From Waddliaceae bacterium (lineage in GTDB: Bacteria > Chlamydiota > Chlamydiia > Chlamydiales > Waddliaceae), in the NCBI GenBank assembly GCA_963822595.1, contig CAWGIG010000001.1:1-64000 (forward strand): 64,000 nt of DNA, in the 5' to 3' direction. This document shows, piece by piece, positions 57,001-64,000 of the stretch. Position numbers: made by a program. Positions within the stretch are counted from its first letter, which is position 1. Each line of letters starts with the position of its first letter.

Positions 57001-60000
57001 CCATGCCGTACCCATTACGATCGGAGCTATTTTCACCGCCAACGGAACCTTCCTCTACCAAAACATATTCCATTTTGATCCTATCGCATTTTCCATCGTT
57101 CAAGCTGTTCCGGTAGCTATTCAATGTATGGGCACATGGATTTATCGCAAAGTCGTCCCAGAAGCAGGTTTAAAAAAGACCCTAAGCATAGGATCCTGGG
57201 TAGCTACAACTTACTGCGCCACCTGTCTATTAATGATTTTTAATGTTTTTAGCGGTCCTTGGATCACCGTAGCTGCCGTCAGTCTATTTACCTTAGGCAG
57301 TACTTTTATTATCACATCTGCAGCGACGTTATTACTCGATTCCACAGAAAATAATAAAGGACTTACAGCCTCTTTCCTTAATCTTGTGAGAAATATGGTC
57401 ATTGCAAGTGTCATCACTGCAACAAGCTTCTTACCCACCCATTCTGTCGCCCCTATTTTTGGCGCGATGCTCGTTATTTCATTAACAACCATCTACCTCA
57501 TTTCTAGAGTACAGCAGGAGCTGAAAAAGAAGGAATCGCTTGTCCTAGGTGTTTAAAAATATGTTGGACCCCATTTCCTTGGAGTCTGACAGACTTATCT
57601 CTTGATATGTTATCAGAATAGATGACCATTTTATTTAGAAATTCATCCAAAATTTCAAAACTGAGCTCCTGAGAACACAAACCAAATTTGTTTTGACCTA
57701 TCACCCATCCATTCATTTGCTGTTCATAAATAGGTAAAGGAAGCGCCAACACAGGTATCTCAAGAGCCATCGCTTCAGAAAGAAGACTATGTCCTGCTGT
57801 AGAGATAATAGCCGAACAGCTTTCTAATAATAAATCGAATTTGGGATCTCCATGAATATACAAATACACATTCGAAGGGCGTTCTTTCAACATCTCCGGA
57901 GTAAACACATGAAATTGATAATCAGGAAATTTTGCAAACAGTTCTAAGAATTCTTTCAAGGGCTGTTTTTGAAATTGCTGTGAAGAAAAATAAACTAGGA
58001 TCTGTCCTTTTTGAGGCTGACGTTTGAGGTTGTAAACATGATCTCTTAAAATAGGCGGAACAATGACAACCTCTCCATCGCTCTCAACAGAAAAAAACGA
58101 ACAGGCAAGACGCATTGAGGCTTTTGGAAAAAACATACGTAGGCGCATGACCTCATCTGCATAGAAACATCCTTCAATCGATCGGGGAAATATTCCTGTC
58201 AAATATTTGCTCTGTTGATCAATGGTCACCAGGGGACAATTCCAAGCATAGGCATATTGCGCTGTTATCGGCTCGTAATCGCTGATCGCTAAATCGGGTT
58301 TTCCTATCAGCTTTTCCGCTTGTGCCATGGCTTGGCAATTGATTGAAAAAAAATCAACTTCATTTTGCTTTTTCAGCAAAGATTGTTCAAAATCAAGGCC
58401 GGATTCGTTGCCAACATAATAAGGAACAGCAACTTTTATCAAATGCATGTTTGGAAACACATTTAAATGAGATTTTAAATAGTTATAGCTGGAATCATAG
58501 GCAAACACGACAACTTTTGCTCCCTGTTTTAATAAGGTAGTTAATATGGGAAGCTGTCGAAAAAGATGCCCGTTACCTATACCGCAAATGCCGTAGAGTA
58601 TTTTCATGCAGGTGCCTTGAGTATATTCATGACTTGGTGGGTAACATAATCCATTGATCCGATCACGTTTACGGTTCGAATTTTTTTGATTCCTTGCGAT
58701 AATCTCACGGCATTTTTCTGCTTCACATCGGGTTTCACGGTACCGTAAAAGACATAATTCCCCTCGTTTAGCAACACATCCTCGCGTTGGCTATCCATAA
58801 AAAACGGATAGAGATTGTGTACAGCACTGAGTTTACTTAACTCATCAAAAGTATCTCTACCATCGTTTAGATAAAGCAAGACGACAGCTTTGATAGGAAC
58901 ACGTTTGGCACTTGCGTAATGTTCATGTTTTATACGGAAAGAGTGCCTACTTGTGGTTCGTACGACCTTTTCAACCATTTCTTTCCATCTTCCTTCTTCA
59001 GGAGCCCTGCTCGTTAAGACTTTTGTCCCCCCTATTCCCCAAAGAGTAGCTTCGCCATCTACTTCAACGACAGTTTTATCTCCTGAAAAAATTTTTATTC
59101 CGTATCTTCTAGCGCACTCCAACGCCGTAGAAGTTTTTCCGCACCCGGCCTCACCCACTAGTAATACATAACCATCTTTATCATTTCCAATGCATGCGCT
59201 ATGAATGACAAATAATCCCTGATTGAGCCAAGACTGATGCACCATGCAATAAAGCAGATGCGGTAAATCGGGAGACATCTTCCCACTCCAGGGTTCTTGC
59301 AAAAAAACTTCGGACTCTGATTGCCTTAAAGAAAAAGATCCATTTTGTTCGTGAGTGATTCTAAGATCGGGTTTCTCAGGGATCACAGAAAGCTCGACAA
59401 GCTCGGGAATATGGGCTTGCAACGCATAAAGATCCGATTCCCTAAAAGCAACATCTGAATTGCTTGTGATGATCGCAGTGACTGCACCGGCCAATAAAAA
59501 TGCCTTTTCAAACATATGTAGCATCCATTTCTTTAGATTTAATTTTTACAATTTCAGCAACTTGTTGCGCACCTTCACTTCCAAACATATCTAAGAGCGA
59601 GGTAAGATTCAGAGATGTTTTTTTGGTCAGTTGATCCAACCCTTCTTTCATTAGCACATTCAGACGATCGGAAGTTTCCTTTTCAGAAAGTTTATTGATC
59701 TGTTGCCCTATTTCTTCTAAAACTATGCGTTGACCCATTTTATAGTCGATTTTTTCTCCTAACTGTTCCCAATCGAGAAAGGCATCCACTTGTCCATGAT
59801 CTCGAATCAAATCCAACTGCTGCCCTTGGCTATCATTGACAGGGGGGATAAATAGGCAGGGAATACCATGAGAGGCCGCTTCATAAATATTTGCAAGACC
59901 TGGAGTTTGTATGGCAATTTTTACTTTCGGCAGCAGAGAGAACATTTCATCTCTACTATATGTGCAAATATTTTCATGAGGAAGCAGCTGTACGATTTGG

Positions 60001-63000: not shown

Positions 63001-64000
63001 AGTGAGAGAAGCAATCGAACGGGGTGTCAATGTTGAAATCATCTCAAACGGGATTAGTAGGGCTCTTTCTATTCCTGCGCGTATTCAGGGAATGAGAAAT
63101 TCTAAGTATTTTCGAGTGCTTGTCAAGCTTGATGGGGTGAACGTCAGCTTACATGTCATGCATAAGTCGTTCCTACATACAAAAGTGATGGTTGTTGACG
63201 AGGAAACAATGCTGATCGGTAGTATGAACATCGACAAAAAAAGCACACGATGCGATGACGAGATTCTTTTGGAGATAAAATCCCAGCAAATCGCACTGGA
63301 AGCATTGGAACATTTGCGCATGATCAATGGTTATGCTATTGAATTCCAAGACAATGCAAAAATTGTAAGGCCGATAGAAATCATGGCCGACAAATTATTA
63401 GATGGAATTCTTTGAGGCAAAATCCGCCTAAACTTACGCTTTAATTTACACTATATTTATAAAAATAAATAATATGTTATAATATTAATTATAAGTAATA
63501 TTAATTTATTATTAAGGTGAACTATGAATATTAGTAACCTTGAAAAAGCTGCACAAGCGTTTTCTACAGCTGCTAATCAAGCAGCCGTAGAAACTAAAAA
63601 TGATATCCTTAGAGACAATATCCAAACCTTATCCAAAGAAATCATGCAATATGCAGGAGATCGGCAAAATTCAGCGGCTTCATGCTCCGCCATGATTAAC
63701 AAAGCCAGCCGGCTTTATGACATATCTAAATTTAATTTTAATGAAACTTCAATGGCTGCTGTTGAAAATCATTATGTAACGCTATCAAAATTAGCTACTT
63801 CTGTTATCCATAATAAGATGATGGAGGGACAAGCCGATTCCAGCTGGTTGTTAGATTTTTTGAAATTAGATAAAAATATCCAAAAAGAACTATTAAACGA
63901 TCCTCAAATTTCTCAGCGTTTTAGCGCTGCCATTTCTGAAGCAGGGCCGAATCTTCTATTAAATCGAGAGACGAGATTAACATTGTTCATCCGATTGGCC

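What the first reader, a model, noticed from the sequence alone, without database searches (positions are those of the whole stretch)
57504..63415. Four-gene overlapping operon (PhyH-like Fe/2OG oxygenase, GT, HprK-like P-loop kinase, GT) divergent from a PLD-family gene
60598..61767, 59508..60629, 58604..59524 and 57504..58607 overlap one another by 4-32 nt, consistent with a translationally coupled operon. The combination of oxygenase, two glycosyltransferase-like proteins and an HPr-kinase-like kinase suggests tailoring of a glycoconjugate (a lipid A or LOS-type modification) or of a peptide or small molecule. No precursor peptide is obvious. A two-HKD phospholipase-D-family gene is divergently placed, with a palindromic repeat in the shared promoter region.
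Basis: inference. Interest (0 to 1): 0.6.

Follow-up and report, generated by a model that had tools for sequence, protein, structure and literature searches.

The report
Conserved four-enzyme glycoside-tailoring gene cassette
The four overlapping genes are a real operon and form a self-contained, uncharacterised enzyme cassette (oxygenase, two sugar transferases, a mini-PEPCK-like kinase) that is kept together, and often fused into one protein, in chlamydiae, ultra-small CPR bacteria, predatory bacteria and animal symbionts; it most likely builds a phosphorylated sugar-decorated small molecule, not a lipid A/LOS modification.

Summary
Four same-strand ORFs sit at the stated coordinates and overlap by 32, 8-17 and 4 nt.

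They are a PhyH Fe/2OG oxygenase (g1), two GT-B glycosyltransferases (g2, g4) and a P-loop phosphotransferase (g3).
- Both GTs resemble GT1-type small-molecule UGTs. They do not resemble LPS enzymes.
- g2 is a Pfam-less sister family of cytosylglucuronate (CGA) synthase.

The four genes co-occur in 43 of 59 reference-genome loci from about 8 phyla, with unrelated flanks. Many fusions occur, including one 1412-aa protein that carries all four domains. No precursor peptide and no other core partner is conserved. The PLD gene and the palindrome are not conserved neighbours. A Bcr/CflA MFS transporter is linked only in a few chlamydial and other loci.

One subclass has signal-peptide-like N-termini on every polypeptide, which suggests action outside the bacterium. 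It is found in other chlamydiae, TM6, Bdellovibrionales and some gammaproteobacteria.

Best reading: sequential oxidation, double glycosylation and phosphorylation of one small, possibly nucleobase- or nucleoside-like, metabolite. The substrate is unknown. I found no description of the cassette in the literature.

The parts
60598..61767 (-). g1: PhyH-family Fe(II)/2-oxoglutarate oxygenase, long form with an N-terminal helical extension of about 90 aa
   Evidence: Pfam PhyH 1.5e-12, above cut-off. H206-x-D208, H300 and R311 are invariant in 34 homologues. The family profile's closest solved relatives are SnoK (1.8e-8) and SnoN, then DUF1479/Gig2 and EctD.
59508..60629 (-). g2: GT-B glycosyltransferase of an unnamed family, sister to CGA synthase (BlsD/MilC)
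58604..59524 (-). g3: mini-PEPCK / HprK-superfamily P-loop phosphotransferase (likely start at 59515)
57504..58607 (-). g4: GT-B glycosyltransferase, PF13528 (Glyco_trans_1_3), near the MJ1255/VC2487 family
   Evidence: PF13528 2.4e-36. TIGR00661 scores 110 bits, below its cut-off of 195.9. The family profile hits the GT1 UGTs YjiC, OleD and plant C-GTs. The G13-H14 and E278...E295-Q296..N299 motifs are conserved.
61806..61834 (-). candidate sigma-70-type promoter for the operon (TGGAAA-17-TATTAT), about 40 nt upstream of the g1 start
   Evidence: Consensus scan, 9 of 12 matches. This is a weak pattern match only; the count in the region is not above the shuffled expectation.
56348..57556 (+). 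Bcr/CflA-type MFS transporter, convergent with g4 and overlapping it by 53 nt; a possible lineage-specific accessory (export of the product)
   Evidence: MFS_1 2.3e-37. TIGR00710 1.8e-43, below cut-off. The same convergent neighbour is present in Waddlia L012 at 39% identity, with weaker cases in L025 and L011. A g2-MFS fusion protein, P0100/L062, shares 46% identity with this MFS.
61869..61975 (.). long perfect palindrome in the divergent intergenic region (not a conserved part of the cassette)
   Evidence: 32-nt arms, 100% complementary. -77 kcal/mol, z = -14. Single copy in the window. Absent upstream of g1 in L003/L004, where a NUDIX gene sits instead.
62054..63415 (+). two-HKD phospholipase-D-family gene (a neighbour, not part of the cassette)
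   Evidence: PLDc_2 2.3e-29 and PLDc 2.4e-14, two stretches each. No PLD homologue appears next to the cassette in any of 70 related loci.

Best explanation
The four genes form one operon that encodes a self-contained pathway acting on a single small, soluble acceptor. The enzymes probably work as a complex. The proposed steps are:

1. g2 is a GT-B enzyme whose only recognisable relatives are cytosylglucuronate synthases, which couple a free nucleobase to UDP-glucuronate. It attaches a first sugar from an NDP-sugar.
2. g1 is a PhyH Fe(II)/2OG oxygenase whose closest solved relatives, SnoK and SnoN, act on C-H bonds of the sugar of a glycoside. It hydroxylates or otherwise oxidises the acceptor or its sugar.
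3. g4 is a GT1/GT28-like UGT with the His-Asp type N-terminal motif. It adds a second sugar.
4. g3 is a two-domain mini-PEPCK with an intact P-loop and conserved His. It transfers a phosphate from a nucleoside triphosphate to the product or to an intermediate.

The order of the steps and the identity of the acceptor are inferred, not shown. My preferred guess is a nucleobase- or nucleoside-like primary metabolite, giving a phosphorylated, oxidised pyranosyl 'nucleoside' diglycoside. In this organism the adjacent Bcr/CflA MFS transporter may export the product.

Shown: gene structure, folds, conserved catalytic motifs, co-conservation and fusions.
Inferred: chemistry, substrate, order of steps and export.
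For: 1. Operon structure: overlapping same-strand ORFs, with the same overlaps in relatives.

2. Co-conservation: all four genes are present in 43 of 59 reference-genome loci found through g2 alone. Most of the rest are cut by contig ends. Four different gene orders occur and the flanks are unrelated.

3. Rosetta-stone fusions in many combinations:
- g1+g2 (L002)
- g2+g3
- g3+g4
- g4+g2
- g2+g3+g4
- g3+g4+g2
- a single 1412-aa g1-g2-g3-g4 protein, P0245

4. Small-molecule character:
- The g4 profile hits YjiC, OleD and plant CGTs.
- The g1 profile hits SnoK, SnoN, DUF1479 and EctD.
- g3 as a whole resembles PEPCK, a small-molecule kinase.

5. Nucleobase/nucleotide hint:
- 23 of 24 g2 members match only CGA synthase among NCBIfam GT models. 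CGA synthase couples UDP-GlcA with free cytosine (PMC3715490).
- Accessory neighbours or fusions are nucleotide or phospho-ester hydrolases. These are a NUDIX-g3 fusion (P0174), NUDIX next to L003 and L044, ITPase/XTPase-like genes next to three CPR loci, and a CobC-like histidine phosphatase in Obscuribacterales.

6. Catalytic residues are invariant in all four families.

7. MFS link: neighbours in Waddlia and Micavibrio, and a g2-MFS fusion.
Against: - No substrate, donor sugar or product is identified, and nothing was tested biochemically.
- The g2-CGA synthase similarity is far below the family cut-off (31 bits against 300 for the window's g2), so it shows kinship and not shared specificity.
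- The nucleotide-hydrolase neighbours occur in only a handful of about 45 non-redundant loci. Some may reflect local synteny within the CPR.
- The position aligned with PEPCK's metal-binding Asp (D149 here) is Asn in most g3 homologues, so g3's chemistry may differ from PEPCK and HprK.
- HprK-superfamily relatives with known roles outside PEPCK act on proteins or peptides.
- The secreted subclass is hard to reconcile with a purely cytoplasmic biosynthetic role.
- Three loci with adequate flanks lack g1 (L015, L046, L051).
Confidence: 0.5

Rival explanations
1. Xenobiotic or antibiotic inactivation module. It would hydroxylate (phase I), glycosylate and phosphorylate (phase II) an incoming toxic small molecule, and an MFS pump would then expel it (phase III).
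For: The closest structural relatives of both GTs include promiscuous or macrolide-type detoxifying GT1 enzymes (YjiC, YojK, OleD). The neighbouring and fused transporter belongs to the Bcr/CflA drug-efflux family. From established knowledge, phosphorylation and glycosylation are classic antibiotic-inactivation reactions.
Against: Strict four-way co-conservation and covalent fusion in a fixed domain order point to an ordered pathway, not redundant inactivation. The cassette is retained in very small CPR genomes. MFS linkage is seen in only a few loci. The secreted variants do not fit cytoplasmic detoxification.
Confidence: 0.15
2. Host- or prey-directed effector module. The enzymes are delivered outside the bacterium and modify a host macromolecule (protein or lipid) or a host metabolite, using host ATP, UDP-sugars and 2OG.
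For: In 8 loci every separately translated polypeptide starts with a signal-peptide-like segment (mean Kyte-Doolittle hydrophobicity >= 2.2 over 11 aa, preceded by basic residues and followed by small residues). All other loci score <= 1.9. The 8 loci are chlamydiae L001/L044/L050, TM6 L051, Bdellovibrionales L010, gammaproteobacteria L064/L070, and L046. Further representatives show the same feature (P0142, P0153, P0182), and P0160 carries an N-terminal bilobed hydrophobic domain like chlamydial Inc proteins. Carriers are strongly enriched for obligate symbionts, epibionts and predators.
Against: The window's own proteins, like most family members, have no such N-termini. GT1-type folds argue for small acceptors. 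No signal-peptide predictor or experiment was available. Free-living-type Obscuribacterales with 6.7-7 Mb genomes also carry the cassette.
Confidence: 0.15
3. Peptide (RiPP-like) or protein tailoring. g3 would phosphorylate a Ser/Thr of a peptide as HprK-like lasso-peptide kinases do, g1 would hydroxylate a residue, and the GTs would glycosylate it.
For: g3 belongs to the HprK/PEPCK superfamily. Weak hits were found to HprK_rel_B, Hpr_kinase_C (19 of 37 members) and PF27840 'ScmC' on distant relatives. From my own knowledge, not verified here, HprK-like kinases in lasso-peptide clusters phosphorylate precursor peptides.
Against: No small ORF (20-90 aa) is conserved next to the cassette across lineages. 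No PqqD/RRE, cyclase, protease or other partner is conserved. g3 resembles PEPCK over both domains, not only the HprK core. The GTs are GT1-like small-molecule enzymes.
Confidence: 0.08
4. Lipid A / LOS / Kdo modification.
For: The enzyme classes (hydroxylase, kinase, GTs) superficially parallel KdoO/LpxO, KdkA/WaaP and the core GTs. The host of this window is probably a Gram-negative, chlamydia-like organism.
Confidence: 0.03

Closest known systems
Cytosylglucuronate (CGA) synthase BlsD/MilC and pyranosyl-nucleoside antibiotic pathways (blasticidin S, mildiomycin)
   Same: g2 and 23 of 24 of its homologues match TIGR04467 over nearly the full length and match no other GT model family. The GT-B fold with a UDP-sugar-type motif is shared. 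The pathway logic of building on a free primary metabolite plus an NDP-sugar needs no scaffold synthase, which fits a four-gene stand-alone cassette.
   Different: Scores are far below the family cut-off (31 bits against 300 for the window's g2). None of the other Bls/Mil enzymes (radical SAM BlsE/MilG, CMP hydrolase, aminomutase) is present. Instead there are a PhyH oxygenase, a second GT and a mini-PEPCK. Carriers are symbionts, predators and CPR bacteria, not actinomycetes.
GT1-family small-molecule UDP-glycosyltransferases (YjiC/YojK, OleD/MGT, CalG, SpnG, plant UGTs)
   Different: Sequence identity is 9-15%. g2 has no Pfam family. g4 belongs to PF13528, near the uncharacterised MJ1255/VC2487 group. 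Here the GTs are obligately paired or fused with an oxygenase and a kinase.
ATP-dependent PEP carboxykinase and HPr kinase/phosphorylase (PEPCK/HprK P-loop superfamily)
   Different: g3 is about 300 aa against more than 500 for PEPCK. It fails PF01293, PF07475 and the TIGR HprK-related models. The Asp aligned with the metal-binding or catalytic Asp is Asn in most members. It lacks the N-terminal domain of HprK/P. It is always linked to GTs.
SnoK/SnoN (nogalamycin) and other PhyH-family natural-product oxygenases
   Same: They are the best solved relatives of the g1 family profile (1.8e-8 and 8e-4). The HxD...H facial triad and the Arg are shared. SnoK and SnoN act on the carbohydrate part of a glycoside (my knowledge of the depositors' work).
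   Different: The match covers only about 100 residues of the core. g1 has its own N-terminal helical extension (long form) or a signal peptide (short form). No polyketide genes are present.
Fungal glycolipid clusters (sophorolipid, cellobiose lipid): hydroxylase + two GT1 enzymes + transporter
   Same: The logic is the same: oxygenase, then two sequential GT1 glycosylations, then export by a dedicated transporter (from my own knowledge, not tested here).
   Different: Those clusters use P450 hydroxylases and fatty-acid acceptors and have no kinase. There is no homology beyond the GT1 fold.

Membership tests
PhyH (phytanoyl-CoA dioxygenase-like Fe/2OG oxygenases, PF05721) | Profile match above the gathering cut-off | tested here: met
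   g1 scores 48.7 bits against a cut-off of 22.
PhyH (phytanoyl-CoA dioxygenase-like Fe/2OG oxygenases, PF05721) | HxD...H iron triad and a 2OG-binding Arg | tested here: met
   H206, D208, H300 and R311 are invariant in 34 sequences.
CGA synthase (TIGR04467 equivalog) | Score at or above the curated cut-off (300 bits) | tested here: not met
   31.2 bits for the window's g2. The best family member has E = 4.3e-24 and is still sub-threshold. g2 is therefore a related family, not a member.
CGA synthase (TIGR04467 equivalog) | Uses free cytosine and UDP-glucuronate | not testable with these tools
   Needs an enzyme assay.
GT-B fold, GT1-like nucleotide-sugar glycosyltransferases | Two Rossmann-like domains, with the closest structures being GT1 UGTs | tested here: met
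Glyco_trans_1_3 (PF13528) / MJ1255-VC2487 family (TIGR00661) | Profile matches above the cut-offs | tested here: inconclusive
   PF13528 is met (126 bits against 25). TIGR00661 is not met (110.1 bits against 195.9).
HPr kinase/phosphorylase (HprK/P) and HprK-related kinases A/B | Hpr_kinase_C domain or TIGR04355 match above cut-off | tested here: not met
   PF07475 scores 14.7 bits against 33.3. TIGR04355 scores 18 bits against 200. Of 37 family members, 19 match PF07475 at E <= 1 (best E 2.4e-7).
HPr kinase/phosphorylase (HprK/P) and HprK-related kinases A/B | Catalytic-domain fold | tested here: met
PEP carboxykinase (PF01293) | Profile match above cut-off and full-length (more than 500 aa) architecture | tested here: not met
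Lasso-peptide / RiPP tailoring cluster | Adjacent precursor peptide and RRE/PqqD, cyclase or protease genes | tested here: not met
   No small ORF is conserved across lineages. No conserved partner genes are found among 140 neighbours.
LPS/LOS core or lipid A modification locus | Restricted to LPS-producing bacteria; GT9/GT4/GT30-type GTs; WaaP/KdkA-type kinase | tested here: not met
   The cassette is present in CPR phyla and archaeal-labelled MAGs. The GTs are GT1-like. The kinase has the PEPCK fold. No direct comparison to KdoO or KdkA profiles was made beyond the library scans, which returned no such hit.
Phospholipase D superfamily (neighbour gene) | Two HKD motifs | tested here: met
   PLDc and PLDc_2 each matched in two stretches.

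The most novel reading that the evidence does not exclude
The cassette is a horizontally mobile, previously undescribed four-enzyme pathway characteristic of host-dependent and predatory microbes: Chlamydiota, Dependentiae, CPR, Bdellovibrionota, Micavibrio, Endozoicomonas and some Melainabacteria. It makes a new class of phosphorylated, oxidised diglycoside, possibly a pyranosyl nucleoside analogue, entirely from primary metabolites. In one subclass the whole pathway is secreted, or anchored Inc-like, so that it runs inside the host or prey cell on the host's ATP, UDP-sugars and 2-oxoglutarate.
Probability: 0.2. Interest if true: 0.85.

Novelty: new variant of a known kind. Interest (0 to 1): 0.62.

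Why it matters
Two of the four families have no usable annotation: g2 has no Pfam family, and g3 is a mini-PEPCK that fails every model in the local libraries. Yet they sit in a cassette whose functional unity is about as well supported as genomics allows, including a natural four-domain fusion.

The cassette is retained in some of the smallest known genomes (CPR). It is enriched in obligate symbionts, epibionts and predators. One subclass looks exported. That makes it a candidate for a shared host-interaction or metabolite-manipulation mechanism across very distant lineages.

It is also directly testable. Four soluble enzymes, or one fusion protein, could be expressed and fed UDP-sugars, 2OG and ATP.

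If the product is a nucleoside-like glycoside, it would extend pyranosyl-nucleoside chemistry beyond actinomycete antibiotics.

Tried and rejected
1. LOS/lipid A modification was rejected. The taxa include CPR and archaeal-labelled MAGs, the GTs are GT1-like and the kinase is PEPCK-like.

2. A link to the PLD gene and the palindrome was rejected. No PLD homologue lies near the cassette in 70 loci, and the palindrome is single-copy and absent in the closest relatives.

3. A RiPP cluster was rejected. Clustering of ORFs of 20-90 aa around all loci found families only within near-identical Obscuribacterales contigs.

4. A search for extra conserved partner genes found nothing beyond antisense shadow ORFs. 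The methods were all-vs-all clustering of ORFs of 80 aa or more, and a Pfam census of 140 neighbours.

5. An anti-phage defence system was rejected. PADLOC gave only marginal P-loop hits for g1 and g3, none for g2 or g4, and DrmC-like hits for the PLD gene only.

6. A viral origin found no support. There are no relatives of g2 or g3 in IMG/VR.

7. Ten literature searches found no description of the cassette. Topics were PhyH+GT+HPr kinase, PF13528, MJ1255, ScmC, Saccharibacteria or Endozoicomonas + PhyH, and CGA synthase.

8. The organism could not be identified. Exact look-ups gave no names or accessions.

It was rerun with allowed ones.
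Full report
**1. Observation**

The ORF list reproduces the four minus-strand ORFs exactly.

| Gene | Coordinates | Length |
|---|---|---|
| g1 | 60598-61767 | 389 aa |
| g2 | 59508-60629 | 373 aa |
| g3 | 58604-59524 | 306 aa |
| g4 | 57504-58607 | 367 aa |

The junction sequences show the following overlaps.
- g1/g2 overlap by 32 nt.
- g2/g3 overlap by 17 nt if g3 starts at ATG 59524, or by 8 nt if it starts at ATG 59515. The second start is the one used by homologues, which begin MFEKAF.
- g3/g4 share ATGA, a 4-nt overlap.

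The same 32/8/4-nt pattern is present in related metagenomic contigs. A weak sigma-70-like promoter lies about 40 nt upstream of g1.

The divergent two-HKD PLD gene is real. So is a perfect 32-nt palindrome that folds at -77 kcal/mol with z = -14. g4 also overlaps the 3' end of a convergent Bcr/CflA-type MFS gene by 53 nt. Base composition across the operon is unremarkable.

**2. What the four proteins are**

*g1* is a PhyH-family Fe(II)/2OG oxygenase.
- It scores above the Pfam cut-off.
- H206-x-D208, H300 and R311 are invariant across 34 homologues.
- A family profile finds SnoK (1.8e-8) and SnoN as the closest solved relatives, followed by DUF1479/Gig2 proteins and EctD. All of these are small-molecule enzymes.

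*g2* has no Pfam family.
- 23 of 24 homologues match one NCBIfam model, TIGR04467 (cytosylglucuronate synthase). The best E-value is 4.3e-24, and the window's g2 scores 31 bits against a cut-off of 300.
- CGA synthase couples UDP-glucuronate to free cytosine (PMC3715490).

*g4* is a PF13528 GT.
- It scores 126 bits against PF13528. It is near but below the MJ1255/VC2487 model.
- Its profile hits the GT1 enzymes YjiC, OleD and plant C-glycosyltransferases.

*g3* has only sub-threshold P-loop, HprK and PEPCK sequence hits.
- All of the top 50 Foldseek hits are PEPCKs.
- H108, the P-loop (G127, G129, K130), T151, R193 and D244 are invariant in 37 homologues.
- D149, in the SGDK segment that parallels the metal-binding or catalytic Asp of PEPCK and HprK, is Asn in most members.
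- g3 is therefore a 'mini-PEPCK' of the PEPCK/HprK superfamily. It is not an HPr kinase.

**3. Conservation**

The word-indexed search suggested that g3 is extremely rare, with 9 hits in 5.8 billion sequences. An exhaustive HMM search corrected this to about 200 representatives at E <= 1e-30 among 1.84 billion. g2 has 92 indexed relatives, all labelled hypothetical.

A scan of one genome per GTDB species with the g2 alignment gave 59 loci. tblastn with all four proteins gave these results.
- All four genes are present in 43 loci.
- Most of the remaining loci are cut by contig ends.
- Three loci with adequate flanks lack g1 (L015, L046, L051). One lacks g3 (L069). Two have g2 alone (L058, L062).

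Gene order varies.
- g1-g2-g3-g4 is the most common order.
- g1-g3-g4-g2 occurs in some chlamydiae.
- g3-g4-g2-g1 occurs in Endozoicomonas and Kistimonas.
- g4-g3 divergent from g1-g2 occurs in two gammaproteobacterial MAGs.

Flanking genes are unrelated between lineages. Clustering of all flanking ORFs of 80 aa or more, and a Pfam census of 140 nearest neighbours, found no further core component. No small ORF is conserved across lineages. The PLD gene is never a neighbour elsewhere.

**4. Fusions**

Natural fusions link the four proteins in many combinations.

| Fusion | Examples |
|---|---|
| g1+g2 | L002, 771 aa |
| g2+g3 | L060, P0157, P0205 |
| g3+g4 | L010, L044, L046, L050, L051, P0007, P0008 and others |
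| g4+g2 | Endozoicomonas, 781 aa |
| g2+g3+g4 | L064, P0123, P0153, P0194, P0224 |
| g3+g4+g2 | Kistimonas L053/P0232, P0237 |
| g1-g2-g3-g4 | P0245, 1412 aa, same order as the operon |

Together with the co-conservation, this is strong evidence that the four enzymes act on one substrate, probably as a complex.

**5. Who carries it**

According to the record titles, the carriers are:
- Chlamydiota (Waddlia and several MAGs)
- Saccharibacteria, Peribacteria, Moraniibacteriota and Uhrbacteria (CPR)
- Melainabacteria/Obscuribacterales
- Micavibrio and other alphaproteobacterial MAGs
- Bdellovibrionales
- TM6/Dependentiae
- Endozoicomonas and Kistimonas
- two archaeal-labelled MAGs (Nanoarchaeia, Methanosarcinales), where binning errors are possible

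No relatives were found in viral contigs.

The window's own copies are 64-74% identical to unnamed metagenomic relatives. They are 39-56% identical to a Waddlia MAG that has the same convergent MFS neighbour. g1 identity to CPR copies (about 45-53%) is close to its identity to Waddlia (56%), so horizontal spread is likely. The window also encodes HEAT-repeat, eukaryote-like kinase and toxin-domain proteins. This is consistent with a host-associated, chlamydia-like organism, but the source was not identified.

**6. Three architectural classes**

- *Class A* includes this window, the CPR, the Melainabacteria, Micavibrio and Waddlia. It has a long g1 with an N-terminal helical extension, mostly separate genes and no hydrophobic N-termini.
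- *Class B* comprises L001, L010, L044, L046, L050, L051, L064 and L070. It has a short g1 and fused g3-g4. Every independently translated polypeptide begins with a basic residue or two, a hydrophobic stretch and a small-residue motif. Mean Kyte-Doolittle hydrophobicity is >= 2.2 over 11 residues, against <= 1.9 in all other loci. These look like Sec signal peptides. Further representatives show the same feature, and P0160 carries a bilobed hydrophobic N-terminus reminiscent of chlamydial Inc proteins.
- *Class C* (Endozoicomonas, Kistimonas) has a short g1, a g4-g2 fusion and no signal peptides.

Oxygenases, kinases and Leloir GTs need 2OG, ATP and NDP-sugars. Export therefore suggests action in a host or prey cytosol. 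This is an inference, and no signal-peptide predictor was available.

**7. Accessory hints**

Several lineage-specific neighbours or fusions are hydrolases of nucleotides or phospho-esters.
- A NUDIX domain is fused to g3 in P0174. The Pfam NUDIX match is 9e-16, and the nearest model is the NadM-Nudix ADP-ribose pyrophosphatase.
- A MutT-like NUDIX gene lies directly upstream in L003/L004.
- An NrtR-like Nudix regulator lies beside L044.
- ITPase/XTPase-like (DUF84) genes lie directly upstream in three CPR loci, L013, L017 and L021.
- A histidine phosphatase closest to alpha-ribazole phosphatase lies downstream in Obscuribacterales.

A Bcr/CflA MFS transporter neighbours the cassette in this window and in Waddlia, with weaker cases in Micavibrio and L011. 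It is fused to g2 in a Chlamydiales MAG. All these associations are sporadic and count only as weak evidence.

**8. Mechanism proposed**

The supported part is a self-contained pathway on one small acceptor:
- two NDP-sugar-dependent glycosylations (g2, g4)
- an Fe/2OG-dependent oxidation (g1)
- an NTP-dependent phosphoryl transfer (g3)

The preferred, more speculative part is that the acceptor is a nucleobase- or nucleoside-like primary metabolite. This rests on g2's exclusive kinship with CGA synthase, on g1's kinship with sugar-modifying SnoK and SnoN, and on the nucleotide-hydrolase accessories. The product would be a phosphorylated, oxidised pyranosyl diglycoside, exported here by the MFS transporter.

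I put about 0.5 on the general statement and about 0.25 on the nucleoside-like specifics.

**9. Rivals**

| Rival | Confidence |
|---|---|
| Xenobiotic inactivation module | 0.15 |
| Host-directed effector acting on a host macromolecule | 0.15 |
| Peptide/RiPP tailoring | 0.08 |
| LOS/lipid A modification | 0.03 |

The host-directed effector reading concerns location and overlaps with the best explanation.

**10. Novelty and verdict**

Ten literature searches found no description of the cassette. The component folds are known. The combination, the two unannotated families, the distribution and the secreted subclass are new. I rate it a new variant of a known kind (a small-molecule tailoring cluster), of moderately high interest, with a clear experimental path.

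Noticed in passing
window 61869-61975: A very stable perfect palindrome sits between the divergent g1 and PLD starts. It has 32-nt arms, extendable to about 47 nt with one 7-nt indel, built from GACGCRG-like heptads, and folds at -77 kcal/mol. It is single-copy in the window and absent in the closest related loci. Its role (operator, insulator or terminator, or remnant of a mobile element) is unknown.
   Followed up: partly
window 56348-57556 (+) versus g4 57504-58607 (-): The Bcr/CflA-type MFS gene and g4 converge and overlap by 53 nt at their 3' ends. The same convergent MFS neighbour occurs in a Waddlia MAG (L012), and a g2-MFS fusion exists in a Chlamydiales MAG (P0100/L062).
   Followed up: partly
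window 53341-55821 (+): A bifunctional MurF-alanine racemase fusion. It scores 814.7 bits against NF008897, just above the cut-off of 804.
   Followed up: no
window 25820-28516 (-): An 898-aa protein with a C-terminal 'Cytotoxic' domain (PF09000, 8.9e-28). This suggests a polymorphic or colicin-like toxin.
   Followed up: no
window 41777-43522 (+) and 19818-22217 (-): A eukaryote-type Ser/Thr protein kinase domain protein and a HEAT-repeat protein. Both are typical of host-associated bacteria with eukaryote-like effectors.
   Followed up: no
P0245 (1412 aa, metagenomic representative): A single polypeptide contains g1, g2, g3 and g4 domains in the same order as the operon. It is an ideal construct for biochemical work.
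   Followed up: partly
P0160 / L074 2493-5114: A g3-g4 fusion is preceded by an N-terminal region of about 190 aa. This region has a bilobed hydrophobic segment (residues about 33-78) resembling chlamydial inclusion-membrane (Inc) proteins. The contig is too short to assign a taxon.
   Followed up: partly
P0174 (426 aa) and L003 1480-1908, L044 1588-2277: A NUDIX domain is fused to g3 in P0174. NUDIX genes lie beside the cassette in two chlamydia-type loci, and the one in L044 resembles the ADP-ribose-responsive regulator NrtR.
   Followed up: partly
L001, L002 (P0008, P0007): In two independent contigs the g3-g4 fusion ORF ends inside the GT at the same place, and a separate ORF encodes the C-terminal half of the GT. 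This is either a genuine split GT or recurrent frameshifts.
   Followed up: no
L072 3502-4464 (P0114): A distant g3 relative (E about 1e-15) carries a weak PF27840 'ScmC' hit. It sits next to an archaeal-type SAM synthetase and a GT2/mannosylglycerate-synthase-like GT. It may be another GT-linked branch of the mini-PEPCK/HprK family.
   Followed up: no
L039 and L055: Complete or near-complete cassettes lie on contigs binned as Nanoarchaeia and Methanosarcinales. If the binning is correct, the cassette crosses the domain boundary. Mis-binning was not excluded.
   Followed up: no
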